Shown piece by piece: positions 28,206-41,420 of a stretch of DNA of 64,000 nucleotides. The stretch comes from Candidatus Pacebacteria bacterium UBA1364. GTDB lineage: Bacteria > Patescibacteriota > Microgenomatia > UBA1400 > PJMF01. The position numbers were made by a program, and so were the translations under genes. The stretch covers positions 85,197 to 149,196 of the forward strand of contig DBRQ01000009.1 in assembly GCA_002306345.1 (NCBI GenBank). Reading direction: 5' to 3'. Each line of letters starts with the position of its first letter. Positions within the stretch are counted from its first letter, which is position 1. The notes under the pieces are model-generated. The model did no database searches. It saw only the letters and a list, made by a program, of their open reading frames with translations, and was not told the origin of the DNA.

Positions 28206-30428
28206 ATGAAGAATCAATTTAAAGCTGGGGTTTGGCAGAAAGAAATTAATACCAGAGATTTTATTTTAAATAATTTAACTCCCTATGATGGTGATCAGTC
28301 TTTTCTAGTAGGGCCAACCAAAGCGACCAAAAAATTATGGGAGAAATCGAGCGAACTATTGAAACAAGAAATTAAAAATGGTGGTGTCTTAGACATTGAC
28401 ACCAAAACCATTTCGTCCATTGTCAGTCACAAACCTGGTTATTTAGACAAAAGTTTAGAAAAAATTGTTGGTTTTCAAACTGACGCCCCATTGAAAAGAG
28501 CGATAAAACCGTATGGTGGAATCAGGGTCGTTGAAGCTGCTTGTGAAGAAAATGGTTATAAAATTGATCCACAGGTGGTGGAAATTTTTACTAAGTATCG
28601 CAAATCTCATAATGACGGTGTCTTTGACGCTTACACTAAAACCATGCGTCAATTGCGTTCAACCGGTATTTTGACCGGTTTGCCAGATAATTATGCTCGT
28701 GGTCGTATTATCGGTGATTATCGTCGCGTAGCTCTTTATGGGATTGACCATTTAATTGAAGCCAAAAAAGCGGATAAAGAGGCTTTAGATGGGGTAATGA
28801 CCGATGATTTAATTCAATTACGCGAGGAGGTCAGTGAACAAATTAAGGCTTTAGCAGAAATGAAAGAGATGGCAGCTACCTATGGTTTTGACATTTCTCA
28901 GCCAGCCACGAATGCCAAAGAGGCTATTCAATGGACTTGGTTTGGATTTTTGTCAGCACTTAAAGAACAGGACGGGGCGGCCATGAGTTTGGGGAATGTT
29001 AGTTCATTTTTTGATATTTATATTGAGCGTGATTTAAAAAATGGGACTCTCAACGAGGTAGAGGCTCAAGAATTAGTGGATCACTTTATTATGAAGTGTC
29101 GTTTTATTCGTCATTTGCGCATGAATGCTTACAATGAATTATTTGCTGGCGACCCCACTTGGACAACCGAAGCCATTGGTGGTTTTTTTGCCAATGGTCA
29201 GCACAAAATTACCAAAACTAGCTTTAGATTTTTGCAAAGCTTATACAATATTGGGCCCGCTCCAGAACCAAACTTAACCATTTTGTGGTCAGATAAGTTA
29301 CCAAAGGGTTTTAAGGAATTTTGTGCTCAGGTTTCCATTGATACTTCATCGCTACAGTATGAAAATGACACGCTGATGAGAGAAGTGAGCAGTGTTGACG
29401 ATTATTGTATTGCCTGTTGTGTTTCAATGATGGAAACTGGCAAAGAAATGCAGTTTTTTGGTGCGCGCTGCAATTTAGCCAAAGCTTTATTACTAGCTCT
29501 AAATGAAGGCCGTGATGAAAAAACTGGCGAATTGATCGTGCCCGACATCAAAAAAATGCCTAAGGGGCCAATTGATTACCAAGAATTTAATAAAAGATTC
29601 AAAAAAACTGTTGCTTATTTGGCCAAAGCTTACGTTAATACTATGGACGTGATTCATTACATGCACGATAAATATTACTATGAGCGCGCCCAAATGGCTC
29701 TTATGGACACTAAAGTCAAAAGAAACATGGCTTTTGGAATAGCCGGTTTAAGTGTGGTAGCTGATTCTATTTCGGCAATTAAATTTGCCAAAGTAACCGC
29801 CACGCGTGATAAAAATGGTTTAACCCAAGAATTTAAAATCAAAGGTGAGTTTCCAATGTATGGCAATGACGACGACAGAGTGGACGCAATTGCTCAAAAT
29901 TTGGTGAAAAACTTTAATCAAGAATTGGCTAAACAGCATATTTATCGTCATGCCACACCAACTTTATCAGTTTTAACTATCACTTCCAACGTGGTTTATG
30001 GTCATAAAACTGGAGCAACTCCAGATGGACGTAAGGCTGGCGAGCCTTTTGCTCCGGGAGCTAATCCAATGCATGGTCGTGATCATTCCGGCGCTATTGC
30101 TTCTTTAAATTCAGTTGCCAAAATTGATTACCGCAACGCTCGCGACGGCATTTCTAACACTTTTTCCATTGTACCAAAAACACTTGGTGAAAATAAGCCA
30201 GCGCAAATTAAAAATCTTTTAGCAATGTTGGATGGTTATTTTAATAAAAATGCTCACCATTTAAATGTCAATGTTTTAAATCGTGAAACTTTATTAGATG
30301 CCATGGATCATCCAGAGAAGTATCCACAATTAACCATTCGTGTCTCTGGTTATGCCGTCAACTTTATTAGATTAAGTAGAGATCATCAAAGAGAAGTCAT
30401 CGCTAGAACTTTTCATGAGAGTATGTAA
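28206..30428 (+). CDS. pflB: Pyruvate formate-lyase (formate C-acetyltransferase)
   Basis: Active-site CC (IACCVSMM) and glycyl-radical motif RVSGYAV near the C-terminus; 740 aa. Confidence 0.95.
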
Positions 30429-30440
30429 GGCAAGTTTGAG

Positions 30441-31175
30441 ATGTTAAAGATTCATTCATTGGACACCTTTGGTACTCATGATGGACCAGGCATTCGTTTG
30501 GTTATTTTTGTACAGGGGTGTCCATTTCGTTGTGTTTATTGTCACAATCCTGACACACAAGCTTTAACGACTGACAAAATGCAGTTGCTTGATACGGCAG
30601 AAATTCTTGAGCTTTTAACGAAAGAAAAAAGTTACTTTGGGGTAACTGGTGGTTTGACGATTTCTGGTGGTGAACCCACTTTGCAAGCACCAGCTCTCAT
30701 TGAACTTTTTAGAGAATGTCATCGACATGGATTTAATACCTGTTTAGATACTTGCGGAGCTATTTTTAATCAAACGATTAACGAACTTTATGATTTAACT
30801 GACATAGTAATGCTTGATGTTAAGCACATTGACCCAATTTGGCATCAAAAAATTACCCAAAATAACAATGAAAACGTGCTTGCAAATGCTCTTTATCGAG
30901 AAAAAAGTGGCAAAGAGCTGTGGTTGCGCTATGTTTTGGTTCCGGGTTGGAGCAATCAAGTAGAATATTTAGAGGCTTGGGCTAAATATTTTGCTGATTA
31001 TAAATCTCTAAAAAGAGTGGAAATTATTCCCTACCACAAATTAGGAGTTTTTAAATACGAGGCTTTAGGCAGAAAATATGAATTAGAAGGGGTGCAACCA
31101 CCAAACGGAGAAGAAATTGATCAAGCTTTAATAATTTTTAGTAAGTATTTAGGCAATAAGGTTGTGGTAGTATAG
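30441..31175 (+). CDS. pflA: Pyruvate formate-lyase activating enzyme (radical SAM)
   Basis: GCPFRCVYCHN CxxxCxxC cluster motif, 244 aa, immediately after pflB. Confidence 0.93.
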   Translation: MLKIHSLDTFGTHDGPGIRLVIFVQGCPFRCVYCHNPDTQALTTDKMQLLDTAEILELLTKEKSYFGVTGGLTISGGEPTLQAPALIELFRECHRHGFNTCLDTCGAIFNQTINELYDLTDIVMLDVKHIDPIWHQKITQNNNENVLANALYREKSGKELWLRYVLVPGWSNQVEYLEAWAKYFADYKSLKRVEIIPYHKLGVFKYEALGRKYELEGVQPPNGEEIDQALIIFSKYLGNKVVVV

Positions 31176-31202
31176 TCCACAAATACTAAATAGAAAGAAA
31201 AT

Positions 31203-33296
31203 ATGAATTTAGATGTCCTCTTTTATCCCAAATCAATTGCCATTATTGGTGCTTCTAGTAGAGAGAAAACAGTTGGCAACGATGTGGTAAAGAATTTGGT
31301 ACAGCAAGGTTATCAGGGAAAAATTTATCCCGTTAACCCTAAAATCGATCAACTTTATGGGCTTAAGGTTTACCGAGATGTTGATGATATTGAGGGAACA
31401 GTTGAATTAACGGTTTTTGCCATTCCAGCTAAATTCGTAGCACAGGAGGTCAAGAAAGTAGCTAAAAAAGGTGCTCAAGCCGCAATCGTTATCTCTGCTG
31501 GTTTTAAAGAAACAGGTAATGTGGAATTAGAAGAAGAATTGGCAGCCACTTGTAACAAATTAGGTATAATTTTAGTTGGTCCAAACTGTTTAGGTTCAAT
31601 CAACGCCGAATATCACATGAACGCTTCTTTTGCTGCTATTATGCCACCAGTTGGTGATGTGGCCTTTTTATCACAGAGTGGGGCCTTATGTACTGCTGTT
31701 TTGGATTATGCCAAAGATTTGGGAGTTGGATTTTCTAAATTTTTGAGTATTGGCAATAAAGCCGCTTTGAACGAACTTGATTTGATTAAATATTTGCATG
31801 CTGATCCAAAAACTAGAGTTATTTGCTTATATACCGAATCACTTAATAATGCACCTAAATTAATTGCAACCCTTAAAGAATTAAATCGTGGTGCAGGAGC
31901 GACTCCTAAGCCGGTGATTATTCTTAAATCTGGTAGAACTGCCGCTGGGGCTGGAGCAATTGCCTCGCACACTGGTTCATTAAGCAGTGGCGACAGCGCT
32001 TATCAAGCTTTGTTTGCTCAAGCTGGTATCATTCGCGCCAATAGTGTGAGTGAACTTTTTGATTTAGCTCAAGTTTTTTCTATGAATCAGATGCAAAAAG
32101 TTGAGACAGTCACCATTATCACTAATGCTGGTGGGCCAGGTGTTTTAACCACTGATGCGGTGATTGAAAGTGGCTTGCAAATGGCGGAATTAGCGCCAGA
32201 AACTGTTACTAAACTGCGATCTTTTTTACCCGCCTCAGCCAGTACCCACAATCCAGTTGATGTTCTAGGAGATGCAGTGGGCGAAGTTTATGAACAAACT
32301 ATCAACGCTGTGGCGCAAGACCCCAACACAGATGCCATAATTGTACTTTTAACGCCGCAATCAATGACTGAACCCGCTAAAACTGCTAGCGCCGTGGTTA
32401 AGATGCGTCGCGTGAGTAAAAAACCAATTATGGTGAGTTTAATGGGTAAAGCTTTAGTCGCGGCTGGGGTGAAAATTTTAGAAAAAAATCAAGTGGCAGT
32501 CTCTGCTTTTCCAGAACCGACGGCTCAGGCTCTAGCTAAATTTGCTCAATTTAGTAATTGGAGTCGAGAGAAAAACGAAGCTTTTTTAAGCTATCAAGAT
32601 GTCGATAAGGTCAAAGTGGCACAAATTTTTGCTAAGGCTAAAAGCCAAGGTCAAACTTCTTTTCCAGAAGCAGAAGCAATGGAAATTATGAAAGCCTATA
32701 ATTTTCCTTTGTTAAAATCAGCTATTGCTAAGAGTCCACAAGAGGCTTTAGCAATTATGCAAAAATTTAATTGTCAGGCAGCGATGAAGATTGTTTCCCC
32801 AGATATTTTGCATAAAAGTGACGTTGGCGGAGTTAGTCTTGATGTAAACACTAAGAATGTGATCAACGAATATGAGGCGATGATGACAAGAGTTGCCCAA
32901 AACAAACCAGAAGCAAAGTTGAAAGGTGTACTCTTAATGGAAATGGCGCCCAAAGGAGTTGAATTGATTCTTGGTATTAATAAAAATACTTTGGGAACCA
33001 TGCTCATGTTTGGTTTAGGGGGCATTTATGTAGAAGTCTTTAAAGATGTTAATTTTGCTTTTGCTCCGCTCACTAGAACAGATGCTTTACGTTTAATTAA
33101 TAGTCTTCGCTCTAGTAAATTACTTGAAGGTGTTAGAGGTGAGGCAGCTGTAAATAAAGAGAACATTATTGAGGCCATTGGTCGTTTATCTCAATTAGTG
33201 ACTGATTTTCCAGAGATAGTAGAATTAGATATTAATCCTTTATTGGCAACTGCATCTGGTGCTAAAGTGCTTGATGCTAGAATTGTGATAGAGTAG
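31203..33296 (+). CDS. ADP-forming acetyl-CoA synthetase (fused alpha/beta, ACD/NDP-forming acyl-CoA synthetase)
   Basis: N-terminal CoA-binding fold (IAIIGASSREKTVGN), phosphohistidine loop IASHTGSL, and a C-terminal ATP-grasp domain; 697 aa. Confidence 0.88.
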   Translation: MNLDVLFYPKSIAIIGASSREKTVGNDVVKNLVQQGYQGKIYPVNPKIDQLYGLKVYRDVDDIEGTVELTVFAIPAKFVAQEVKKVAKKGAQAAIVISAGFKETGNVELEEELAATCNKLGIILVGPNCLGSINAEYHMNASFAAIMPPVGDVAFLSQSGALCTAVLDYAKDLGVGFSKFLSIGNKAALNELDLIKYLHADPKTRVICLYTESLNNAPKLIATLKELNRGAGATPKPVIILKSGRTAAGAGAIASHTGSLSSGDSAYQALFAQAGIIRANSVSELFDLAQVFSMNQMQKVETVTIITNAGGPGVLTTDAVIESGLQMAELAPETVTKLRSFLPASASTHNPVDVLGDAVGEVYEQTINAVAQDPNTDAIIVLLTPQSMTEPAKTASAVVKMRRVSKKPIMVSLMGKALVAAGVKILEKNQVAVSAFPEPTAQALAKFAQFSNWSREKNEAFLSYQDVDKVKVAQIFAKAKSQGQTSFPEAEAMEIMKAYNFPLLKSAIAKSPQEALAIMQKFNCQAAMKIVSPDILHKSDVGGVSLDVNTKNVINEYEAMMTRVAQNKPEAKLKGVLLMEMAPKGVELILGINKNTLGTMLMFGLGGIYVEVFKDVNFAFAPLTRTDALRLINSLRSSKLLEGVRGEAAVNKENIIEAIGRLSQLVTDFPEIVELDINPLLATASGAKVLDARIVIE

Positions 33297-33392: not shown

Positions 33393-34529
33393 ATGAAGTC
33401 GGCTATTTACGCTTTTTCTGGCGACCCCATTACTTTTGGGCACATTGATATTATTTGTCGTGCGGCAGCGGTTTTTGATCGTTTAATAGTGGCTATTGGT
33501 GTTAACCCAGCTAAAAAATATCTTTTTTCTCAAGAAGAAAGAGTCGAAATGGCCAGACGATCATTACTTAACTTAAAAAATGTTGAAGTCAAGCCTTTTA
33601 CTGGTTTATTGGTAGATTTTGCTTATGAAAATAATATTGATGTGATCGTCAAAGGAGTGCGCAGCGGGGCCGATTTTGAATATGAGCGTGGTTTACATAA
33701 TTTAGGTGATAGTCAAAAACTTGGAATTGATACGTTTATTCTTTTTGCTAAACCAAGTTTAGCTCACATTAGCTCGAGCGCTGTTAAGGATATTCAAAAA
33801 GAACAGGGTTTGATTCAGGATTATGTGCCGGCTTACGTTAAGCAATGTGTTGAAATTAAGCTTAGTAGTCAGTACATCGTTGGTTTGACTGGTGAGATTG
33901 GCGCAGGTAAATCTTACGTTGGGCAAAAATTAGTAACTTTTGCCAATGCTTTGGGTTTAGAAGCGCACAACATTGATCTTGATTATCTAGCCAGACAAAT
34001 TCAAACTGATCTTCAGGAAGAAAAGTACGCGCTTGTACGCAGACAAATTATCAATGCTTTTGGAAAAAAAGTAACTAATTTAGATGGTACTATCAATCGA
34101 AAAGCTTTAGGAGAGATAGTGTTTGCTGATCGTAAAAAATTAGATCAACTCAACGAAATTATGGCCACTCCAATTTTGGTGCGTTTGCGTCACGAACTAA
34201 AAGCAAAAAAGGGCTTAATTTTTCTTAATGCTGCTTTATTAGTGGAGGCTGAAATGAGTCGCTTAGCTAATTATAATATGATTTTGTTGTCGGTTGATGC
34301 AGCAACTCAAGAAAAAAGATTGTTGGCCAGAGGGCTTAACAAAAAGCAAATTGAAAGAAGACTGAAGAGTCAGTATGATTTTGCTAGTAAGAAGGCTCTT
34401 TTGGAGCAAGAAATAAAGCAAAATCAACATGGTCAGCTTTGGTTTTTAGCTAATCAAGCTGCCAGCGACCAAGAAATTAAAAATCTACTTCAAGACATTT
34501 TAAGCTATTTTAAAATTGCAGTTCAATAG
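33393..34529 (+). CDS. Bifunctional phosphopantetheine adenylyltransferase / dephospho-CoA kinase (CoaD-CoaE fusion)
   Basis: The N-terminal ~160 aa is collinear with CoaD (SGDPITFGHIDII, VKGVRSGADFEYE, ISSSAVK). The C-terminal half has the CoaE P-loop (VGLTGEIGAGKSYV). Confidence 0.88.
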   Translation: MKSAIYAFSGDPITFGHIDIICRAAAVFDRLIVAIGVNPAKKYLFSQEERVEMARRSLLNLKNVEVKPFTGLLVDFAYENNIDVIVKGVRSGADFEYERGLHNLGDSQKLGIDTFILFAKPSLAHISSSAVKDIQKEQGLIQDYVPAYVKQCVEIKLSSQYIVGLTGEIGAGKSYVGQKLVTFANALGLEAHNIDLDYLARQIQTDLQEEKYALVRRQIINAFGKKVTNLDGTINRKALGEIVFADRKKLDQLNEIMATPILVRLRHELKAKKGLIFLNAALLVEAEMSRLANYNMILLSVDAATQEKRLLARGLNKKQIERRLKSQYDFASKKALLEQEIKQNQHGQLWFLANQAASDQEIKNLLQDILSYFKIAVQ

Positions 34530-35277
34530 AAATTGGGCAATGATCTGAACCCTGTACTTGATTGTGAATGTCCGCTTTTTGCAGGTTTTTTTTAAGATTT
34601 TGACTGATGAAAAAATAATCAATTCTCCAGCCGACATTTCTGACTCTAGCTCCAGAGCGTTGACTCCACCAAGTATAGCAATTTTTTTCCGTTGGATGTA
34701 AGGCACGAAAACTATCTACAAAACCAAGTTGTATTAATTGATCAATCCAAGCTCTTTCTTGCTTAAGAAAACCGGAAATCAATTGATTTTCTTTTGGTCT
34801 AGCTAGATCAATTTCTTGGTGAGCAGTATTAAAATCTCCACAAATAATAATATTTTTTTCTGTTTTTAAAAGTTCTCTAAGATAATTAAGTAAAAAATTG
34901 CAGTAATCCATCTTATATGCCAATCTTTCTGGAGAAGCTTTACCGTTTGGAAAATAAATATTAAATAAAGTAAAGTTGTTGTATTGACTAATGATGGTGC
35001 GACCTTCACGATCAAATTTATTTTCAGCTAAACCAATTTGTGTGGCGATAGGTTTAATTTTAGAATAGGTAATTACCCCGCTGTAACCCCTTTTTTCTGC
35101 ACAAGCAAAATAACTTTGGTAAGCAGAAACTTCACTTAAATCAAAACTTAATTGGTCTACGGAAATTTTGCTTTCTTGTAAACAAACAATGTCAGCATCT
35201 AAATTTTCAAGCCAGCTGAAAAAACCTTTTTTGGCAATGGCACGAATACCGTTCACATTCCAAGAATAAATCTTCAT
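34510..35277 (-). CDS. xth: Exodeoxyribonuclease III (AP endonuclease)
   Basis: MKIYSWNVNGIRA start, LQE, GDFN, and SDHCP C-terminal motifs. The ORF extends to 35313 but the conserved N-terminus begins at 35277. Confidence 0.9.
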   Translation of the reverse strand: MKIYSWNVNGIRAIAKKGFFSWLENLDADIVCLQESKISVDQLSFDLSEVSAYQSYFACAEKRGYSGVITYSKIKPIATQIGLAENKFDREGRTIISQYNNFTLFNIYFPNGKASPERLAYKMDYCNFLLNYLRELLKTEKNIIICGDFNTAHQEIDLARPKENQLISGFLKQERAWIDQLIQLGFVDSFRALHPTEKNCYTWWSQRSGARVRNVGWRIDYFFISQNLKKNLQKADIHNQVQGSDHCPISIELQF

Positions 35278-35311
35278 AATATAAAGATTATAGCGTATAT
35301 TTGGAAACGGC

Positions 35312-36166
35312 ATGAATGAATATGATTATTTAGTTTTATTAACTCTAACTTACAGCAGTTGTTTTTCCTTTGCTTTAACTGAAGACGAAGTCATCAAACG
35401 ATTACCAAAACCTCCAAAAGAATTATTATTTTCAAGTAAAAAAATCAAAAAGTCACTAAAAAAATTGGTAAATCAAGGTTTGGTTCAAAGTGATGATCAA
35501 TACTTTTATCTGCGAAATCAAGATTTAACCAATAGAAAAAAACGTATTAAGTTCATGGCTGAAAAACAGTTAAAAATCAATGAATTTGTTAAATTGGCGA
35601 GTAAAATTCCGTTTATTAAAGCAGTTGTTTTAACTGGTTCGACAGCTGTGAATAATGCTAAGAAAAATGATGACTTGGATTTTATGATTATTTGTCAAAA
35701 TAATACACTGTGGTTGAGTCGTTTTTTATTGATCATTTTAACTAAATTAAAGCATAAAAGACCTCATCAAGGACAAAATAACGCCTGGTGTTTTAATATT
35801 TTGTTAGATGAAAACGATTTAGTTATTGGTGAAGAAAGAAGAAGTCTCTATGAAGCTTATGAAATTTTGCAGATGGTTTTTGTTTTTGATCGCGATCATT
35901 ACCAAACAAAATTTCTCAATGCTAACGAATGGTTAAAAAAGTACCTATTTTTTTATGATAATTTTAAGTTCGAGACATACAATAAAACAATGTCTTTTTC
36001 ATTACTTAATCAAATTTTCTTTTGGTTGCAGCAAGGATATCGTTTGATTGCTTTTGGACAAGAGGATTTTTCTCTTAGTCCTTCACAGGCGTTTTTCAAT
36101 CGATTGACTTTTAGAGCCAAACTTTTTACTAAGTTAAGGAGAAGATTAACTGATTTTAATATGTAG
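35312..36166 (+). CDS. Hypothetical protein with Pol-beta-type nucleotidyltransferase motif
   Basis: 284 aa with VLTGSTAVNNAKKNDDLDFMII (GS...D.D pattern), preceded by a wHTH-like segment. Confidence 0.6.
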   Translation: MNEYDYLVLLTLTYSSCFSFALTEDEVIKRLPKPPKELLFSSKKIKKSLKKLVNQGLVQSDDQYFYLRNQDLTNRKKRIKFMAEKQLKINEFVKLASKIPFIKAVVLTGSTAVNNAKKNDDLDFMIICQNNTLWLSRFLLIILTKLKHKRPHQGQNNAWCFNILLDENDLVIGEERRSLYEAYEILQMVFVFDRDHYQTKFLNANEWLKKYLFFYDNFKFETYNKTMSFSLLNQIFFWLQQGYRLIAFGQEDFSLSPSQAFFNRLTFRAKLFTKLRRRLTDFNM

Positions 36167-36177
36167 AGTAAAAGGAA

Positions 36178-37566
36178 ATGTTAAATTTAGCAAAAAAGCT
36201 ATTTATTTCCGCAGAAGTTTGGCAAGGTGATAATAAAAGTAAAGCCTATTTTTTGAATTCTGTTAATTTTATTTTAGTTTCTTTTTTCTCACTTGTGCTT
36301 ATTATTCAATTTTCTAATGAAATATTTTTTGCTCATCCGGCTAATCAAAAAAATTTTCTTTCATTATTCTTTCTTATTGTTGCCTTGAGTTTAACAGGAT
36401 TTTTAATTAAAAAAGGTTCAATTCGTTTTGCTACTTTTTTAACAATTGGTTTAATATTGATTTTTTCTTTTGAGAATAGCTTTATTTTAGGCATTAATAC
36501 TTATGGTATTGATATCCTTTATTCATTGGCTATTTTAATTAGTGCTGTTTTAATTAATTTCAAATTTTCTTTTTTTATATTTTTGTTTATTTGTTTCGGT
36601 TTGTCTTTAATTTATTTTTTACAAAATGGCCATTCTTTTACAGATAATTTACTTTGGGAAAACTTTTCGTTTATTTTTGCCAATTTATTAACAATCTTTC
36701 TCTGCTTTATTTTAATTCTTTTTGTAGCCTGGTATTTTTCTAAAGAAACTGAAAAATTTTATAAAAGCAATAAAAAATTAAAACATAAATTAAAACTGCA
36801 AAATGATCATCTTGAAATAATTGTCAAAAATAGAACAAAAGAACTTGAAACCTTGCAACTAAAACAACTAATTAAAGTTGCTCCACTTTTAGATTTAGGT
36901 AAATTATCAATAGGGTTAGTTCATGATATTCGGGAATCTTTAGCAGTTTTAAGTATTGTTTTGCAAAATGCTCAGGAAGACAACAATGTTGTTTCCAATT
37001 TAGATAAGGCTTTTTTAGCTATAGATAGGATTGATGATCTTTCTAAGATGACTGTCTGCAAAATTTTTGATGAAGCAGAGACTGATGTTTTTAATTTAAA
37101 TCAAGAAATTGAGAAATTAATTAGCCTATTTGACTATAGGGCCAAGTTGAAAAGAATAAAAATTATTTTTAAACCAAACAAAGAATTTGAACTTTATTCA
37201 GATAAAAGTAAATTAAATCAAATTTTGTCTAATTTAATTTTAAATGCTTTAGAATCTTATGATAATTCTGATCAAAGTGATCGGTGTGTTTTTATTAAAT
37301 TGGTTAAAAAACCTAGAAACTTATTAATTATAGTTAAAGATTATGGAGTTGGGATTAGCAAAGAAAACTTGCCACACATTTTTGAACCAAAATTTTCTTC
37401 CAAAGATGAAAGACAATCTTTGGGGCTTGGTCTCTATGTTAGTCAAGAAGCAATGAGTAAAATATATGAGTCAAAAATAAAAGTGGAAAGTAAGGTCAAT
37501 TGTGGTTCGACTTTCACTGTTTTGATTAAGAATAAATTTATTATTAATGCATTGTCCAAAAAGTAA
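36178..37566 (+). CDS. Membrane sensor histidine kinase
   Basis: About 6 N-terminal TM helices and a coiled coil. H-box LVHDIRESL, N-box LSNLILNALES, G1 DYGVGI, G2 GLGLY. Confidence 0.88.
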   Translation: MLNLAKKLFISAEVWQGDNKSKAYFLNSVNFILVSFFSLVLIIQFSNEIFFAHPANQKNFLSLFFLIVALSLTGFLIKKGSIRFATFLTIGLILIFSFENSFILGINTYGIDILYSLAILISAVLINFKFSFFIFLFICFGLSLIYFLQNGHSFTDNLLWENFSFIFANLLTIFLCFILILFVAWYFSKETEKFYKSNKKLKHKLKLQNDHLEIIVKNRTKELETLQLKQLIKVAPLLDLGKLSIGLVHDIRESLAVLSIVLQNAQEDNNVVSNLDKAFLAIDRIDDLSKMTVCKIFDEAETDVFNLNQEIEKLISLFDYRAKLKRIKIIFKPNKEFELYSDKSKLNQILSNLILNALESYDNSDQSDRCVFIKLVKKPRNLLIIVKDYGVGISKENLPHIFEPKFSSKDERQSLGLGLYVSQEAMSKIYESKIKVESKVNCGSTFTVLIKNKFIINALSKK

Positions 37567-37590
37567 CATAAATACAATGATTCTCAAATT

Positions 37591-37677
37591 TCTTTTGCAT
37601 TTTTTTCTTTTGCATTTTGATATTTCTAATGCCTAATATTTCTAATACTTGCAATGATTTTTAATTTTTGTTAAATT
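37591..37677 (+). promoter_or_regulatory. Two pairs of direct repeats followed by a sigma70-like promoter
   Basis: TCTTTTGCATTTT at 37591-37603 and 37606-37618. ATATTTCTAAT at 37620-37630 and 37636-37646. Then TTGCAA (37649-54), a 17-nt spacer, and TAAATT (37672-77). Confidence 0.5.
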
Positions 37678-37682
37678 GAGTG

Positions 37683-37830
37683 TTGCTGTGGAATGTAGTG
37701 TAAATCTACAACTGTGCCGCAACGGTGATTCCTTTTAAGGATTAGTCCGGTCTTCAGCAAGAAAAATCTTGACGAGCATCGAGTTAAAGTTTGTTTTTAT
37801 ACATCGATGCTCCCTAAAGGGAGCTTTTTT
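37683..37830 (+). ncRNA. Candidate structured leader RNA (riboswitch-like/attenuator) or small RNA, class unknown
   Basis: P1 is UUGCUG(37683-88)/CAGCAA(37755-60) and encloses three hairpins at 37694-37710, 37715-37727 and 37728-37743. A 9-bp helix follows, GAGCAUCGA(37774-82)/UCGAUGCUC(37804-12). Its 3' arm overlaps the terminator stem. Confidence 0.55.
37809..37830 (+). terminator. Intrinsic terminator
   Basis: GCTCCC-TAAA-GGGAGC followed by TTTTTTGTTTT. Confidence 0.8.
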
Positions 37831-37903
37831 GTTTTAAGAGAGGCACAGCAATTATTTGTTAAGGCTTTAGAGTTATACTCTTTTAGGCCAAGAAAGGTTT
37901 ATC

Positions 37904-38614
37904 ATGGGAAAAGAAAACAGAAGTGCTGTGGAAATGGCGACGAGCATTGGTAGCGAACCAAGTCAACTGGATGAAAAATGGTCTTTGCTTGGCAAAATCA
38001 ATTTTACTAATATTTTAGAAAGTTTGGGTGAAGAACTTGATTTTGATCAATCAGAATGGCAAAGCATTCTTGCTCTCTCTGGTGTGTGGATGCTAAATAA
38101 TTTGGATAATCAAATTGTTGATTTAAAAAATAAGAAGGTGGAGCAAAACACAGCCGTTGAGTTAAGAAAAATGTTTGGTGTACCTTTATCTTTATTGGCG
38201 ATGCCCGTATTTATAGAATTAGAAAAAATGGAAGTTAATGCAAAAAAAGCTTTAAAAGAAGAAGCCGCCGCGACCGCACAAATTTTGGAGCAAATTAATA
38301 ATACATTGCTTTACATGGTTCAGCTTGTTTTAGCAGAGCAAATTAATTTGGTTGAAGAAGAGATTTCTGTTCATCAAGCGGCTTTAGATGCTTCTCAAAA
38401 AGAAGCAGAAGGAATGCCAGCTTTAGGAACAACAATGCAACATGTGGAAGGACAATTTAAAGAAAAAATGGAACAATTGCAAGAAAGAAAAAATCTTTTA
38501 ACTGATACTTTTTCTAAAGTAGGTGACAATTTAAAAAGTTCTATTGGAGAGGTTTTTGAAACCACTGTTTTTAGTGCGAAAGATCAGAGTCCAGTGGCAA
38601 ATGCTATCACTTAA
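37904..38614 (+). CDS. Hypothetical coiled-coil protein
   Basis: 236-aa ORF with GAAAGG 7 nt upstream of the ATG. No TM helix, no recognised motif, and helical heptad-like composition. Confidence 0.65.
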   Translation: MGKENRSAVEMATSIGSEPSQLDEKWSLLGKINFTNILESLGEELDFDQSEWQSILALSGVWMLNNLDNQIVDLKNKKVEQNTAVELRKMFGVPLSLLAMPVFIELEKMEVNAKKALKEEAAATAQILEQINNTLLYMVQLVLAEQINLVEEEISVHQAALDASQKEAEGMPALGTTMQHVEGQFKEKMEQLQERKNLLTDTFSKVGDNLKSSIGEVFETTVFSAKDQSPVANAIT

Positions 38615-38648
38615 TATAAAATGACCAGTTTTTAAAATATGAAATTTG

Positions 38649-38719
38649 ATCCCGGGTCAGGATTTGAACCTGAAACAACTGATTCAGAGTCAGTTATGAT
38701 GCCATTTCACTACCCGGGA
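38649..38719 (-). tRNA. tRNA-Gln (anticodon CUG), CCA not encoded
   Basis: Minus strand reads TCCCGGG-TA-GTGA-AATGGCA-TCAT-A-ACTGA-CTCTGAA-TCAGT-TGTT-TCAGG-TTCAAAT-CCTGA-CCCGGGA-T. It has a U1-A72 pair, and the 3' flank is CAAA. Confidence 0.85.
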
Positions 38720-38767
38720 GGGTAATTTTAAGATTTTTTTATCCCCTGATTATATAACACAATTAAT

Positions 38768-39439
38768 ATGAAGAGGATATTAATTCTTGATAACGATTGG
38801 CTTATTTTATCTTCTTTGAGTAATTTTTTAAGAAAAAAAGGCCATTTGGTAAATTGCGCTCAATCCATTGCAAGAGCAGAAGATTTGTTAATCAAATATA
38901 AATTTGATTTATTTTTATGTGAGCGCATTTTGACAGATGGCGATGTTATAGATCTTTTAAAAAAAATTAAGGAAAAAAAACTTTTCATGAGAACTTTAGT
39001 TTTTAGCAACAAAAAATCTTTGGTGGATCGAATTACTGTTTTAAAATTAGCCAATGATTTTTTAGCTAAACCATTTAATTCCATTGAACTCTGTTTAAAG
39101 ATAGAAAATCTTTTGCATTTAGAAAAAATTGAAACCAGTGGTTTTATTGAAAATTCCCTTTTTTTGTTTAAAGATGCCAATGTTATTGAAGATCATAATC
39201 ATTTTCGCCCTCAAGAACTAAAAATTCTTGAGTGCCTCTTTCGACATAAAAACATAGTTGTTTCCTACGAAACGATTTCTGCTTATGTTTGGGGATATAA
39301 AGAACCGCTTCCTTTGAAAAAAACTATTAGTGTTTACGTTCGGAGAATTAGAACAAAACTTTTTTTGAAAAATTTAAAAATTATTACCATTAAAAACAGA
39401 GGTTATAAACTTATTGATTTAGAGGAAAATAGCATTTAA
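38768..39439 (+). CDS. OmpR/PhoB-family response regulator with Glu at the predicted phospho-acceptor position
   Basis: Receiver domain (ILILDND..., FDLFLCERILTDGD, FSN, KPF) plus a winged-helix output domain (VWGY...SVYVRRIRTKL...NRGYKL). Confidence 0.85.
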   Translation: MKRILILDNDWLILSSLSNFLRKKGHLVNCAQSIARAEDLLIKYKFDLFLCERILTDGDVIDLLKKIKEKKLFMRTLVFSNKKSLVDRITVLKLANDFLAKPFNSIELCLKIENLLHLEKIETSGFIENSLFLFKDANVIEDHNHFRPQELKILECLFRHKNIVVSYETISAYVWGYKEPLPLKKTISVYVRRIRTKLFLKNLKIITIKNRGYKLIDLEENSI

Positions 39440-39881
39440 TTGTAGTGCCTTTATTTTTTTGAGAAATTATTTTAATATGACCGTTGAAGAATTTTTTAAT
39501 GGCTTGATTGGTCTGATAAATATTTAGATTTGTTTGATCTTCTTTAAAAATAAAAGCAATTTGTGTGATCAATTTCTTTTGCAAAAAAGAGAGCCCTTTA
39601 CCACCATGGGTGACGCTGATGGACAGTTCTTTCTCATTTTCAATTTGGCTAGTAATTAAAATTATTCTATTTGTTAAACTATCTTGGTAAGCTTTGCTGG
39701 CATTATTGATTAAATGAAAAAGTATTTCTTGAAAAAGAGCTTTATTGCCGCATAATTCCAATTCGCTTGGTATGTTTGTTTTAAAACTATAAATGAAATT
39801 TTTTTGACTCAAAGCGCTTAGTTGTTTGACTTCTCTAGTGGCAGCATTAACAAGAAATTTTTTCTTTTTAATTTGATTCAT
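39411..39881 (-). CDS. Stand-alone histidine-kinase-like ATPase (CA) domain protein, degenerate
   Basis: 156 aa with an N-box-like HLINNASKAY and a degenerate G1 (THGGKG). There is no DHp/H-box and no TM helix. It is the last gene of the minus-strand glycosylation operon. Confidence 0.6.
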   Translation of the reverse strand: MNQIKKKKFLVNAATREVKQLSALSQKNFIYSFKTNIPSELELCGNKALFQEILFHLINNASKAYQDSLTNRIILITSQIENEKELSISVTHGGKGLSFLQKKLITQIAFIFKEDQTNLNIYQTNQAIKKFFNGHIKIISQKNKGTTIKCYFPLNQ

Positions 39882-39926
39882 ATAAGAGAGGATTTTAAGA
39901 CTCTAACTTAAAATTTACTTAAAATC

Positions 39927-41420
39927 TCACTCTTCTATTTTCCACACTTGCAAGCAGGGCGCTTGATTGATTCGACAAAAACTTGCCAAAAGTTGAGATG
40001 TTGGCAAATCCATTTCAAGTCGATGAGAATTAACCACTAGCAATTTAAGATCAAATCCTTGAGCTTTCTGCCAAAAACTTGAAGGAATTTCTCGAATTGG
40101 TTGACCAATACCTTCCACATAAATGTTGTCGACATTTTGATTGTGTAAATTAAGTAAAATACCATCGGGCAAGGTGCCAAAATAACCTTCAGTGGCGACA
40201 GCCACTCTTTGTGTTTGAGCGAATTTTTCAATCATTTCGCTAATTTCTTTAATACCGTGGCCAGAAGACCATTCTTCTAGGAATTGTTCACGATCGATTT
40301 TACTGAGTTGCAATTGATCAACATTAAAATAAGCATTTTTGATAAAGAGCAAATAGGGCAAGATGATTAACAAAAGAGCTAAAGATTGAATGATTTTTTT
40401 ATTACGCAGGTTATGTAATGAAATGGCGGCCGAACTCAAAAAAAATAAACTACTGCTCAAAATGTAGCGAGGATAAATAATCTTGCCAAGTAAAACAAGA
40501 GGTAAAATAAAAACTATTGCTGAGCAAAATAAAATACTTTGTTTGCGACGAGTTTTTTTAAAAGCTGGTAAGGCTAAAACGAGCACAACTGGGCCTAAAT
40601 AAGTCATCAATTGTTCCATAAAAAATTTGGTATTTCTTATTATGACTGGCCAAATTGCTGTTGAAAAAATGACTGATTTATCTTGTAAAAAATTACCGCC
40701 GACCGCAAACAATTGGCTAAATAAAGGTTCATTCTTAAAACTGGCAAGAGCCAAACCGGCTAGAATTAGGCCCAAACTGATTTTTAAAGCTTTATTTATG
40801 AATAACTGCAGATTTAATTTTTCTGCAAAAAAAATGGCCAAGTAAAAAACAGGAATAAAAAGTAAAGCCGGAGTTTTACTCATAATTGCCAGAAAGAAAA
40901 ACAAAGCTAAACCTAAAACTGGCCAAAAACTTTTATTTTTTACAATTAAAAGCACGAAATAATAAGAGACAGTTAAATTGGCAAAAAGCAGTGCATCGGT
41001 GATGGCTAAACGATTGTGAAAAAAAATAAATGGATTAATGATAGCTAAAAACATAGCTATATAAGCTGCTTTTTTTTCATGGAGCTTTTTTAAAATTAGA
41101 AAAATAAAAGAAACATTCATTGCGCCAGCCAATACTGAAACTAATCTAGCGGCGAAAAGTTGATCAGTAAAAAGACGCAAAAATGGCACCGTCAACCACA
41201 TTAACAGTGGCGTTTTACCATCATTCATTGGGTAAAAAAGGTAACGTGAAAAATCATCAATAATGAGTTGAGACCAACGAATATAGATTGCTTCATCAGC
41301 AAAAACAGGCAGTGTGGTTAAGTTAAAAAGATGTAAGACAAAATATAAAACTAAAAGAGCCAAAAAACAAAGCAAGCTTTTATTTTTCACGTCTTCTATT
41401 AAATAGGAAGATAGCCCCAC
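39927..41420 (-). CDS. GT-C membrane glycosyltransferase (ArnT/PMT_2-like)
   Basis: 497-aa polytopic ORF with first-loop motif PVFADEAIYIRWSQ and a C-terminal soluble domain. Confidence 0.78.
   Translation of the reverse strand: MGLSSYLIEDVKNKSLLCFLALLVLYFVLHLFNLTTLPVFADEAIYIRWSQLIIDDFSRYLFYPMNDGKTPLLMWLTVPFLRLFTDQLFAARLVSVLAGAMNVSFIFLILKKLHEKKAAYIAMFLAIINPFIFFHNRLAITDALLFANLTVSYYFVLLIVKNKSFWPVLGLALFFFLAIMSKTPALLFIPVFYLAIFFAEKLNLQLFINKALKISLGLILAGLALASFKNEPLFSQLFAVGGNFLQDKSVIFSTAIWPVIIRNTKFFMEQLMTYLGPVVLVLALPAFKKTRRKQSILFCSAIVFILPLVLLGKIIYPRYILSSSLFFLSSAAISLHNLRNKKIIQSLALLLIILPYLLFIKNAYFNVDQLQLSKIDREQFLEEWSSGHGIKEISEMIEKFAQTQRVAVATEGYFGTLPDGILLNLHNQNVDNIYVEGIGQPIREIPSSFWQKAQGFDLKLLVVNSHRLEMDLPTSQLLASFCRINQAPCLQVWKIEE

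What the first reader, a model, noticed from the sequence alone, without database searches (positions are those of the whole stretch)
36178..39881. Atypical two-component island: kinase, repeat-flanked promoter, structured leader, unknown protein, Glu-acceptor regulator and orphan ATPase domain
Seven unusual elements sit together within 3.7 kb. They are a canonical membrane histidine kinase, two pairs of direct repeats upstream of a good promoter, a ~150-nt structured RNA with an antiterminator/terminator choice, and a 236-aa coiled-coil protein of no recognisable family. The remaining three are a tRNA-Gln, an OmpR-type regulator whose acceptor Asp is Glu, and a stand-alone degenerate kinase ATPase domain. 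The ATPase-domain gene converges on and overlaps the regulator gene by 29 nt. That gene is also the last gene of the large minus-strand glycosylation operon. A plausible model is a combined transcriptional and RNA-level switch that controls the unknown protein and possibly the envelope glycosylation genes. I cannot assign the module to any described system.
Basis: partly seen in the sequence, partly recalled or inferred. Interest (0 to 1): 0.7.

Follow-up and report, generated by a model that had tools for sequence, protein, structure and literature searches.

The report
B12 riboswitch controlling an orphan protein
The "structured leader" is a vitamin B12 (cobalamin) riboswitch that switches off a small helical protein of unknown family found only in ultra-small CPR bacteria, and related genomes put that protein in the same B12-controlled operons as putative B12-uptake genes, while the neighbouring two-component genes are separate neighbours.

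Summary
They do not form one integrated module.

- **The leader is a riboswitch.** The RNA at 37683-37830 is a cobalamin riboswitch (Rfam RF01482, 58.1 bits, gathering score 50). It has a conserved promoter, an aptamer with covariation, a P13 hairpin, an antiterminator and an intrinsic terminator. I infer a B12-OFF transcriptional switch.
- **The 236-aa protein ("X") is an orphan.** It belongs to a narrow family of acidic, all-helical proteins found only in CPR-type genomes. Every homologue with readable upstream DNA has this riboswitch. This holds at 19-30% identity and in at least five unrelated gene neighbourhoods.
- **Link to B12 uptake.** A metagenome scan with the aptamer core found two main downstream gene classes: X-family proteins and membrane-anchored DUF4430 proteins (transcobalamin C-terminal-domain family). 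In at least one lineage (L053), and probably a second, X is the first gene of a riboswitch-X-DUF4430-DUF6580 operon. X is therefore probably part of a CPR B12 acquisition or handling pathway. Its biochemistry is unknown.
- **The kinase genes are separate.** The kinase, the Glu52 regulator (a known "aspartate-less receiver" type) and the degenerate ATPase-only protein are lost together in two lineages that keep the riboswitch cassette.
- **The direct repeats** occur only in this species.

The parts
36178..37566 (+). Membrane histidine kinase (462 aa). A syntenic neighbour, not part of the riboswitch cassette.
   Evidence: HATPase_c 67.8 bits. NCBIfam alignments to AtoS/ZraS-type kinases cover residues 230-452. 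It is absent together with the regulator and the ATPase ORF in L009 and L012.
37589..37618 (.). Exact tandem duplication of the 15-nt unit TTTCTTTTGCATTTT. Species-specific.
   Evidence: Present only in the window and the 99%-identical strain L054, and absent in L084, L048 and L057. Other loci have no room for it.
37620..37646 (.). Two exact copies of ATATTTCTAAT, 16 nt apart start to start. Species-specific.
37649..37677 (+). Promoter: -35 TTGCAA (37649-54), 17-nt spacer, TG-extended -10 TAAATT (37672-77). The transcript is expected to start at about 37682-37685, right at P1.
   Evidence: The -35 TTG and the TGnTAnnTT element are at least 90% conserved in the 14-sequence alignment A2. It falls below the consensus scanner's threshold. 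The transcription start is inferred, not mapped.
37683..37760 (+). Cobalamin riboswitch aptamer. P1 is UUGCUG (37683-88) paired with CAGCAA (37755-60). It contains the P4, P5 and P6 hairpins and the conserved AGUCCGGUCUUCAGC core.
   Evidence: Rfam RF01482, 58.1 bits against a gathering score of 50, E 4e-9. P4 and P6 carry six compensatory pairs in 15 sequences. 97.3% of cells are paired versus at most 54.5% in slid controls, and 0 of 500 shuffles reach the covariation score.
37768..37783 (+). P13 hairpin CUUGA[CGAGCA]UCGAG. Inferred ligand-stabilised anti-antiterminator. Its loop can pair with the L5 loop GCCG if one A is bulged.
   Evidence: RNAalifold consensus. The loop is invariant and the stem tolerates U-G to U-A or C-G changes in distant loci. 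The kissing-loop pairing is my inference.
37774..37812 (+). Antiterminator: GAGCAUCGA (37774-82) pairs with UCGAUGCUC (37804-12). It shares GCUC with the 5' arm of the terminator.
   Evidence: I4. The antiterminator state is -18.3 kcal/mol and the P13-plus-terminator state is -15.5 kcal/mol. Both arms are invariant in 14-15 loci.
37809..37830 (+). Intrinsic terminator GCUCCCUAAAGGGAGC followed by UUUUUU.
   Evidence: Invariant across loci.
37904..38614 (+). X: a 236-aa acidic, all-helical orphan protein and the riboswitch's regulated gene. The most conserved element is E80..L87R88..F91G92xP94xSLLAxPVF at the turn between the first two long helices.
   Evidence: 41 homologue clusters. Only 39 representatives among 1.84 billion proteins. 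AF2 pLDDT 87.5, and 93.6 for a 29%-identical homologue. No transmembrane helix, pI 4.6. A riboswitch lies upstream in every readable locus.
38648..38719 (-). tRNA-Gln(CTG). A conserved neighbour on the opposite strand.
38768..39439 (+). OmpR/PhoB-type regulator with an aspartate-less receiver. Glu52 replaces the acceptor Asp. Ser80 and Lys101 are retained.
   Evidence: Pfam Response_reg 47.7 bits plus Trans_reg_C 53.3 bits. Glu is invariant in 12 of 12 orthologues and in distant L026.
39411..39881 (-). Stand-alone degenerate HATPase_c protein (156 aa). It converges on the regulator gene and overlaps it by 29 nt.
   Evidence: HATPase_c 31.7 bits. 29% identical to the neighbouring kinase's CA domain. 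The ORF is kept at 133-164 aa in 10 orthologues, but the N-box Asn and G1 Asp are not conserved and the G2 box is absent.

Best explanation
The region holds two independent units.

**Unit 1: a cobalamin-riboswitch cassette.**
- A conserved sigma-70-type promoter starts the transcript directly at the aptamer.
- Without B12, GAGCAUCGA pairs with UCGAUGCUC (the antiterminator). Transcription then reads through into the gene for X.
- With B12 bound, the aptamer stabilises the small P13 hairpin CUUGA[CGAGCA]UCGAG, probably through an L5-L13 loop-loop contact. This withdraws the 5' arm of the antiterminator, so the terminator GCUCCCU/AGGGAGC-U6 forms and transcription stops.
- X is therefore made only when B12 is scarce.
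- X is a cytoplasmic or membrane-peripheral, acidic helical-bundle protein of a family restricted to CPR bacteria.
- The family is always under this riboswitch. In some lineages X is the first gene of a riboswitch-controlled operon that also encodes a DUF4430 protein (transcobalamin-type B12-binder domain) and a DUF6580 multi-pass membrane protein.
- I therefore infer that X takes part in B12 acquisition or intracellular handling. Its exact activity is unknown.

**Unit 2: three signalling genes.**
- These are a membrane histidine kinase, an OmpR-type regulator whose receiver has Glu instead of the acceptor Asp, and a degenerate ATPase-only paralogue of the kinase's catalytic domain.
- The three are gained and lost together. 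The regulator presumably acts without phosphorylation.
- They sit around the cassette by synteny only.

**Shown versus inferred.**
- Shown: riboswitch identity, covariation, universal coupling to X, operon links, and independence from the kinase genes.
- Inferred: the OFF logic, the kissing loop, and X's role in B12 handling.
For: **Riboswitch identity and structure**
- RF01482 at 58.1 bits against a gathering score of 50.
- The same family, or RF01689, lies upstream of X homologues in L001, L002, L004-L012, L014, L016, L017 and L019, in L020/L021, and in L022, L024 and L026.
- Covariation is shown.
- The platform energetics are -18.3 versus -15.5 kcal/mol.
- P13, antiterminator and terminator are invariant.

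**X is a real, narrow family**
-, with confident AF2 models.

**Independence from the two-component genes**
- Synteny map and the different contexts of L020, L022 and L024.

**Link to B12 uptake**
- The scan with the aptamer core gave 80 loci.
- 28 have an X-family gene downstream, and 6 more have a weak match.
- 33 have a DUF4430 domain downstream. In three of these (L083, L085, L086, one sequence) a marginal X-like gene comes first.
- Pfam confirmed DUF4430 and DUF6580.
- The operon riboswitch-X-DUF4430-DUF6580 occurs in L053 (X: 30.6 bits; hhalign 85% probability, E 6e-6). In L093 (X: 20.2 bits) the contig ends after DUF4430, so DUF6580 is not seen there. The L083 group has the whole gene order but a marginal X match.
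- All 40 loci whose riboswitch scores at least 72.9 bits on the X-type model have an X or X-like first gene, or are cut too short to tell.
- DUF4430 is the C-terminal domain of transcobalamin-type binders (PMC4350170).
Against: - No ligand-binding or expression data exist. The OFF direction rests on structure logic alone.
- L5 and L13 are invariant, so the proposed loop-loop contact has no covariation within this clade.
- X has no detectable similarity to any B12-binding, transport or enzymatic family.
- X lacks a signal peptide and a transmembrane helix, so a direct role in transport is not obvious.
- In the window and most relatives X stands alone, with no uptake genes beside it.
- The operon links rest on two to three divergent lineages, and the L083-group match is marginal (hhalign probability 6.5%).
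- DUF6580 itself is uncharacterised. It did not match CbrT or any other solved structure by sequence.
- Several DUF4430-associated and distant X-associated riboswitches score below Rfam's gathering thresholds.
Confidence: 0.7

Rival explanations
1. The Glu-type regulator, possibly controlled by the kinase and the ATPase-only protein, binds the direct repeats at 37589-37646. Together with the leader RNA it forms one combined switch for X and perhaps for the glycosylation operon.
For: The kinase, X, regulator and ATPase ORF are syntenic in most close relatives, and also in distant L026. OmpR-family regulators typically bind direct repeats (established knowledge). The repeats are exact.
Against: The repeats exist only in the window species, and their motifs do not recur at other promoters. 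Their periods of 15 and 16 nt do not fit the 10-11-nt spacing usual for OmpR-type sites. L009 and L012 keep riboswitch+X without any of the three signalling genes. L020, L022 and L024 carry the cassette elsewhere.
Confidence: 0.06
2. X is a ClyA/AhlC-like alpha-helical membrane-inserting or pore-forming protein. It is produced under B12 starvation to permeabilise the host cell on which the CPR bacterium lives, and so release cobalamin.
For: Two independent AF2 models, 29% identical in sequence, both give ClyA-family toxins (AhlC, ClyA, YaxB, SmhB, AhlB, PaxB, MakA/E) among the top PDB matches. The most conserved element is a hydrophobic turn at the tip of a long helical hairpin.
Against: The Foldseek E-values are 0.05-0.5 and the TM-scores 0.3-0.5. 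A designed three-helix bundle scores equally well, so the match may only reflect 'long helical bundle'. The hydrophobic patch is only 13 residues, with a 19-residue KD maximum of 1.26, and it is weaker in distant members. There is no signal peptide. There is no sequence-level hit to any toxin family.
Confidence: 0.1
3. X is not involved in B12 uptake. It is a B12-starvation response factor, for example a regulator, an adaptor or a structural protein that adjusts metabolism or stabilises a B12-independent pathway when the cofactor is scarce.
For: X is soluble and acidic, has no ligand-binding fold that could be recognised, and is usually monocistronic. Cobalamin riboswitches also control B12-independent isozymes in other bacteria (established knowledge).
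Against: X has no enzyme-like fold. Operon linkage with DUF4430 and DUF6580 in some lineages points to uptake or handling rather than metabolic substitution.
Confidence: 0.2
4. The RNA is a degenerate or re-purposed relative of cobalamin riboswitches that senses another ligand, or none at all.
For: Scores are only modestly above the gathering threshold, and below it in some relatives. The model's outer P1 helix is missing. The P6 extension is short, so the RNA sits between RF01482 and RF01689.
Against: The core is invariant over deep divergence, with compensatory changes confined to the stems. The same core precedes DUF4430 proteins and a secreted protein with a weak Cobalamin_bind match, which is a gene set typical of B12 regulons.
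Confidence: 0.04

Closest known systems
Cobalamin riboswitches (Rfam clan CL00101: RF00174 Cobalamin, RF01482 AdoCbl, RF01689 AdoCbl-II)
   Same: It scores above the RF01482 gathering threshold. It has a conserved core, stems that covary, a 5'-UTR location and a P13-type hairpin next to an expression platform. It precedes genes of a B12 regulon (DUF4430 binders) in related genomes.
   Different: The model's outer P1 helix is absent, so the transcript seems to start at the inner P1. The short P6 places it between the AdoCbl and AdoCbl-II models. The X-associated subtype has an invariant P13, antiterminator and terminator module, and is coupled exclusively to one orphan protein family.
B12-riboswitch-controlled uptake systems (BtuB/BtuFCD, ECF-CbrT, BtuM, BtuG-type surface binders)
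   Same: Expression is repressed by B12. In some CPR lineages X shares an operon with a putative extracellular B12 binder (DUF4430) and a small multi-pass membrane protein (DUF6580). This arrangement resembles binder-plus-transporter operons.
   Different: X has no similarity to any known component. It has no signal peptide and no transmembrane helix. DUF6580 did not match CbrT or any other solved transporter by sequence.
Aspartate-less receiver (ALR) response regulators, e.g. ChxR of Chlamydia trachomatis (PMC4395418, PMC3960148)
   Same: OmpR/PhoB architecture with Glu at the phospho-acceptor position. The conserved Ser/Thr and Lys are retained and the second acidic residue is degenerate. 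According to PMC4395418, Glu is the commonest substitution in ALRs (26%).
   Different: It is encoded next to an apparently intact histidine kinase and a degenerate ATPase-only paralogue, and all three co-occur. Phosphorylation-independence was not tested.
ClyA-family alpha-pore-forming toxins (ClyA, AhlC, YaxB, SmhB)
   Same: X has a predicted elongated bundle of three long helices with a conserved hydrophobic turn at one tip. These toxins are the best, though weak, structural matches for two independent models.
   Different: The matches are not significant. The hydrophobic element is far shorter than a toxin head. There is no secretion signal and no sequence similarity.

Membership tests
Cobalamin riboswitch (Rfam RF01482 / RF01689, clan CL00101) | Covariance-model score at or above the curated gathering score | tested here: met
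   Window: 58.1 bits against 50. Orthologous loci: 50.4-63 bits for RF01482, or 44.9-46 bits for RF01689 against 36.5. Some distant loci fall just below threshold.
Cobalamin riboswitch (Rfam RF01482 / RF01689, clan CL00101) | Helices supported by compensatory base changes around an invariant core | tested here: met
   Six compensatory pairs in P4 and P6. 97.3% of cells are paired against at most 54.5% in slid controls, and four of five P4 pairs are compensatory.
Cobalamin riboswitch (Rfam RF01482 / RF01689, clan CL00101) | L5-L13 kissing loop linking the aptamer to the expression platform | tested here: inconclusive
   L5 GCCG can pair with L13 CG(A)GC if one A is bulged. Both loops are invariant in all loci, so there is no covariation within the clade.
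Cobalamin riboswitch (Rfam RF01482 / RF01689, clan CL00101) | Binds a cobalamin and changes gene expression | not testable with these tools
   This needs in-line probing or ITC, and transcription termination assays.
Cobalamin riboswitch (Rfam RF01482 / RF01689, clan CL00101) | Lies in the 5' leader of B12-related genes | tested here: met
   The same aptamer core precedes DUF4430 (transcobalamin-domain) genes in 33 of 80 metagenome loci.
Canonical two-component pair (His-Asp phosphotransfer between the kinase and the regulator) | Phospho-acceptor Asp in the receiver domain | tested here: not met
   Glu52 is invariant in 12 orthologues and in L026.
Aspartate-less receiver (ALR) regulators of OmpR/PhoB type | REC plus winged-helix domains, with a non-Asp residue at the acceptor position | tested here: met
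   Response_reg 47.7 bits plus Trans_reg_C 53.3 bits, and Glu52. The class is described in PMC4395418.
Histidine kinase (applied to the 156-aa ORF) | DHp domain with phospho-accepting His, plus a catalytic domain with intact N, G1 and G2 boxes | tested here: not met
   Only HATPase_c is present. The N-box Asn and G1 Asp vary among orthologues, and the G2 box is absent.
ClyA-family alpha-pore-forming toxins (applied to X) | Significant structural or sequence similarity, a hydrophobic head able to span a membrane leaflet, and secretion | tested here: not met
   Foldseek E-values are at least 0.05 and TM-scores at most 0.5. The 19-residue KD maximum is 1.26. There is no family hit and no signal peptide in the sequence.
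Known B12-binding or transport families (applied to X) | A profile match to Cobalamin_bind, DUF4430, BtuF, CbrT, BtuM or similar | tested here: not met
   No Pfam or NCBIfam match for X or for 45 family members. The PDB profile search gave only coiled-coil noise.

The most novel reading that the evidence does not exclude
X defines a new, CPR-specific component of vitamin B12 acquisition. It would be a cytoplasmic or membrane-peripheral helical-bundle protein that works with a DUF4430 binder and a DUF6580 membrane protein, for example as the intracellular acceptor, chaperone or gate of a previously undescribed uptake route. Less probably, it would be a host-directed membrane-active factor. Either way, it would reveal how ultra-small symbiotic bacteria obtain a cofactor they cannot make.
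Probability: 0.4. Interest if true: 0.75.

Novelty: new variant of a known kind. Interest (0 to 1): 0.6.

Why it matters
CPR/Patescibacteria have tiny genomes, cannot make most cofactors, and are thought to depend on host cells. How they obtain B12 is not known.

- **A B12-sensing RNA.** The riboswitch shows that these organisms sense B12 directly.
- **A dedicated regulon.** The riboswitch's downstream genes appear specific to this lineage:
  - membrane-anchored transcobalamin-domain proteins (DUF4430);
  - a DUF6580 membrane protein;
  - the orphan X family, which is tied to the riboswitch in every locus examined.
- **A concrete, testable gene set.** These genes can be tested for B12 capture and uptake in the group.
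- **A possible tool.** The riboswitch is a natural ligand-controlled switch. A recent perspective suggested riboswitches in general as candidates for controlling gene expression in Patescibacteria (PMC11665869).

The two-component part is of lesser interest. It adds one more lineage in which an aspartate-less OmpR-type regulator co-occurs with a kinase and a pseudo-ATPase.

Tried and rejected
1. **Family searches for X.** Pfam, NCBIfam, PADLOC and PHROGs gave nothing.
   - A scan of 45 family members against Pfam gave only scattered coiled-coil noise.
   - A family profile searched against PDB sequences gave only latrotoxin, fusion-protein and apolipoprotein noise.
2. **Structure searches.** Foldseek against BFVD found nothing. 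Against the PDB it gave only weak ClyA-family and designed-bundle matches. I kept this as a low-probability rival.
3. **The repeats as operators.** Rejected, because they are not conserved and do not recur elsewhere.
4. **Shared neighbours in distant contexts.** The large proteins flanking X in L020 and L022 are unrelated to each other.
5. **DUF6580 as CbrT.** There was no sequence match to any solved structure and no NCBIfam hit. The CbrT paper does not mention the family. The identity of DUF6580 stays open.
6. **Protein-based metagenome scans.** I replaced them with a DNA scan for the aptamer core.
7. **Literature.** No paper in the library links cobalamin riboswitches to CPR, Microgenomates or Patescibacteria.
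8. **B12-related genes in the window.** The 28 ORFs scanned included none. About half of the window's larger ORFs (roughly the first 18 kb) were not scanned.
10. **PduO-type adenosyltransferase** (a helical-bundle B12 enzyme). Considered from memory. No Pfam or Foldseek support.

Full report
**Observation.**
- The ORFs at 36178-37566 (+), 37904-38614 (+), 38768-39439 (+) and 39411-39881 (-) are as stated.
- tRNA-Gln(CTG) lies at 38648-38719 on the minus strand.
- Pfam confirms HATPase_c in the kinase, Response_reg plus Trans_reg_C in the regulator, and HATPase_c alone in the 156-aa ORF. It finds nothing for the 236-aa protein. NCBIfam agrees.
- The exact 15-nt tandem pair (37589-37618) and the exact 11-nt pair (37620-30 and 37636-46) are real.
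- The regulator and the ATPase ORF overlap by 29 nt (39411-39439).
- The ATPase ORF follows an unbroken minus-strand run of glycosyltransferase and sugar-nucleotide genes.

**What the leader is.** A scan of 35000-41000 against Rfam gave a cobalamin riboswitch: RF01482 AdoCbl, 37663-37798, 58.1 bits against a gathering score of 50, E 4e-9. It is the only riboswitch in the 64-kb window.

**Conservation of the cassette.** The 236-aa protein, here called X, has 41 homologue clusters at 48-99% identity. None is named and none has a Pfam domain.
- Loci around these homologues show the same gene order: kinase, X, tRNA-Gln, regulator, small minus-strand ORF, PMT_2 operon.
- Rfam finds a cobalamin riboswitch directly upstream of X in every one with intact upstream DNA. 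In L018 the score is 44.1 bits, below threshold, but the sequence is almost identical.
- Genome records label the carriers as candidate-phyla MAGs: Microgenomatus, Pacebacteria and 'Parcubacteria group'. One is the complete 853-kb genome CP011212.1.

**Structure and mechanism of the switch.**
- *Promoter.* An alignment of 14 loci shows a conserved promoter: -35 TTG and a TG-extended -10, both at least 90% conserved. In the window these are TTGCAA (37649-54) and TAAATT (37672-77). The transcript should therefore start at the first helix.
- *Consensus fold.* RNAalifold on 15 sequences gives the following:
  - P1, UUGCUG paired with CAGCAA;
  - P4 and P6 hairpins with six compensatory pairs;
  - a P5 hairpin;
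  - a small hairpin CUUGA[CGAGCA]UCGAG;
  - the terminator.
- *Covariation on 18 sequences, including distant ones.* 97.3% of cells are paired, against at most 54.5% when partners are slid. Four of five P4 pairs show compensatory change. None of 500 shuffles reaches the covariation score.
- *Competing structures.* GAGCAUCGA (37774-82) can pair with UCGAUGCUC (37804-12). That pairing shares GCUC with the terminator's 5' arm (37809-24).
- *Energetics.* In the isolated platform the antiterminator state is -18.3 kcal/mol and the small-hairpin-plus-terminator state is -15.5 kcal/mol.
- *Inferred logic.* I infer a B12-OFF switch. Ligand binding stabilises the small hairpin (P13). A contact between its loop and L5 is possible, since GCCG can pair with CG(A)GC. 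The stabilised hairpin removes the antiterminator's 5' arm and lets the terminator form.
- *What is shown and what is not.* The loops are invariant everywhere, even where the P13 stem changes. The contact is therefore plausible but not shown.

**The repeats.** In other loci the stop codon of the upstream gene lies immediately upstream of the -35, leaving no room for the repeats. Both repeat pairs are present in the 99%-identical strain (L054) and absent from other relatives. Their motifs do not recur at other promoters beyond chance. They are a species-specific duplication in an AT-rich spacer, not a conserved operator.

**X and the riboswitch are one unit; the signalling genes are another.**
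- L009 and L012 keep the upstream nucleotidyltransferase-like gene, the riboswitch, X, the tRNA and the PMT_2 operon. They lack the kinase, the regulator and the ATPase ORF all together.
- L019 keeps the kinase, riboswitch and X, but not the regulator.
- A profile search of 1.84 billion representative proteins found only 39 family members, all about 225-260 aa.
- Distant members at 19-30% identity sit in unrelated neighbourhoods:
  - L020 lies beside a 1421-aa M23 peptidase;
  - L022 lies between large unknown proteins;
  - L024 lies beside metK and ahcY.
- L026 repeats the kinase..X..regulator synteny.
- All four (L020, L022, L024, L026) have a cobalamin riboswitch upstream, at 36.3-47.7 bits.

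**What X looks like.**
- AF2 gives a confident all-helical model, pLDDT 87.5. It has long helices at 62-91, 100-168 and 172-226 and several short N-terminal helices.
- A 29%-identical homologue gives pLDDT 93.6 with the same plan.
- The most conserved stretch is E80..L87R88..F91G92xP94xSLLAxPVF, at the turn between the first two long helices.
- X is acidic (pI 4.6) and has no transmembrane helix. The 19-residue hydropathy maximum is 1.26, and only a 13-residue patch is hydrophobic.
- Foldseek against the PDB gives no significant match. The top weak hits for both models are ClyA-family pore-forming toxins and a designed three-helix bundle, with E 0.05-0.5 and TM-scores 0.3-0.5. BFVD gives nothing.
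- I treat the toxin resemblance as a lead only.

**What else this riboswitch controls.** I scanned the metagenome collection for the invariant aptamer core, ACTGTGCCGCAACGGT-N15-45-AGTCCGRTCTTCAG. This gave 101 stretches, of which 80 loci were returned. Each locus has exactly one match to a covariance model built from the X-associated riboswitches.

| Gene class downstream of the riboswitch | Loci |
|---|---|
| X-family gene (profile E < 1e-3) | 28 |
| Weak X-like match | 6 |
| DUF4430 domain | 33 |
| Other genes | 6 |
| Too short to tell | 7 |

- *DUF4430 genes.* In most of the 33 loci the DUF4430 gene is the first gene after the riboswitch. It encodes a protein with an N-terminal membrane anchor and a C-terminal DUF4430 domain (Pfam 48.9-59.3 bits). 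In three of the 33 (L083, L085, L086, one sequence) a marginal X-like gene comes first. DUF4430 is the C-terminal domain of transcobalamin-type B12 binders (PMC4350170).
- *Operon type 1.* Riboswitch, DUF4430, a 526-556-aa secreted protein with a weak alpha/alpha-toroid match, then a DUF6580 multi-pass membrane protein. This occurs in L031, L034, L041, L077, L099 and L102.
- *Operon type 2.* Riboswitch, an X-family gene, DUF4430, DUF6580, then folD.
  - L053 is the full example. Its X gene scores 30.6 bits, with hhalign probability 85% and E 6e-6 over 153 co-linear columns.
  - L093 shows X (20.2 bits) followed by DUF4430, but the contig ends before any DUF6580.
  - The L083 group has the whole gene order, but its X match is marginal.
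- *Riboswitch subtype.* All 40 loci whose riboswitch scores at least 72.9 bits on the X-type model have an X or X-like first gene, or are cut too short to tell. The DUF4430-associated riboswitches score 30-68 bits.

**Conclusion on X.** X belongs to a B12 regulon specific to this lineage and is sometimes co-transcribed with a putative binder and membrane component. That is the basis for my inference that X acts in B12 acquisition or handling. The biochemical role remains unknown.

**The signalling genes.**
- *Regulator.* The acceptor residue is Glu52 in all 12 orthologues (LCE, ICE or LSE) and in distant L026. Ser80 and Lys101 are retained, and the first acidic pair is degenerate. This is the described aspartate-less receiver class. 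Glu is the commonest substitution in that class (26%), and ChxR is the OmpR-type example (PMC4395418). The regulator family is as narrow as the X family, with 42 clusters.
- *ATPase-only ORF.* It is maintained at 133-164 aa and 35-54% identity, always converging on the regulator gene. Its N-box Asn and G1 Asp vary and the G2 box is missing. It is 29% identical to the neighbouring kinase's catalytic domain.
- *Second regulator in some lineages.* L004, L008, L017 and L026 carry a second, Asp-containing but degenerate regulator, plus an unknown protein, between the kinase and the riboswitch. The window lineage has lost these.
- *What they do.* How the three genes signal is unknown. Their joint presence and absence suggests they work together, independently of the riboswitch cassette.

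**Verdict.** The interpretation as one integrated module is not supported. The finding resolves into three parts:
- a known class of riboswitch;
- a known class of atypical regulator;
- an orphan protein family whose strict coupling to a B12 riboswitch, and occasional operon linkage to putative B12-uptake genes, makes it a good candidate for a new component of cofactor acquisition in CPR bacteria.

Noticed in passing
L031, L034, L041, L077, L099, L102 (downstream of the aptamer match in each): There is a recurrent B12-riboswitch operon in CPR-like contigs. Its genes are a membrane-anchored DUF4430 protein, a 526-556-aa secreted protein with a weak alpha/alpha-toroid (SQHop_cyclase_C) match, and a DUF6580 multi-pass membrane protein. 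It looks like a 'split transcobalamin' plus transporter, and may be an undescribed B12 uptake system.
   Followed up: partly
L049, L088, L098 (first ORF after the aptamer match): Large, very acidic proteins of 522-725 aa with a shared N-terminal 'TETE..DEE(F/I)L.DAE' motif follow the same aptamer core. Not scanned against any family library; only the N-terminal sequences were read. Not examined further.
   Followed up: no
L096, about 1972-2085 and downstream: A secreted protein of at least 656 aa follows a riboswitch that passes the RF01482 gathering score. It has an alpha/alpha-toroid match and a weak Cobalamin_bind (PF01122, E 2e-4) match. It may be a full transcobalamin-like binder in a bacterium.
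   Followed up: partly
Distant X homologues P0055, P0058, P0061, P0065, P0067, P0072, P0073, P0076, P0077; also L045: Many distant family members end in ...LAA, ...MAA or ...MAL after a conserved 'QST.P' segment. This resembles an ssrA-like C-terminal degradation tag or a sorting signal. The window protein ends in ...NAIT and lacks it.
   Followed up: no
L004 3360-5818; also L008, L017, L026: In some lineages an unknown 603-aa protein (299 aa in L026) and a second regulator lie between the kinase and the riboswitch. That regulator is degenerate but contains the Asp. The 3' end of its ORF runs across the -35 of the riboswitch promoter.
   Followed up: partly
L009 5748-7690: Three unknown minus-strand genes, one on the PMT_2 side of tRNA-Gln, occupy the place of the regulator and the ATPase ORF. 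The kinase is also missing from this locus. This may be an insertion or replacement at the tRNA.
   Followed up: no
L024 3561-3681 (-): A SAM riboswitch-like element lies upstream of metK, next to the riboswitch-X cassette, with pfkB and ahcY beyond. It scores 41.3 bits on RF00162, just below the gathering score of 44.4.
   Followed up: no
window 33393-34529 (+): This 378-aa ORF looks like a CoaD-CoaE fusion. Its orthologues in L001 and L002 carry CTP_transf_like plus CoaE domains in the precomputed Pfam annotation. The fusion is conserved across all related loci.
   Followed up: no
window 28206-33296 (+): Pyruvate formate-lyase (674 bits), its radical-SAM activase and an ADP-forming acetyl-CoA synthetase-like protein sit in a row. 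This is a compact fermentative module typical of CPR genomes.
   Followed up: no
window 35312-36166 (+): This 284-aa ORF has weak nucleotidyltransferase matches (Polbeta, NTP_transf_2) and faint PADLOC PDC-M05A and PDC-S09 hits (E about 0.003). It is conserved immediately upstream of the kinase or, where the kinase is missing, of the riboswitch.
   Followed up: no
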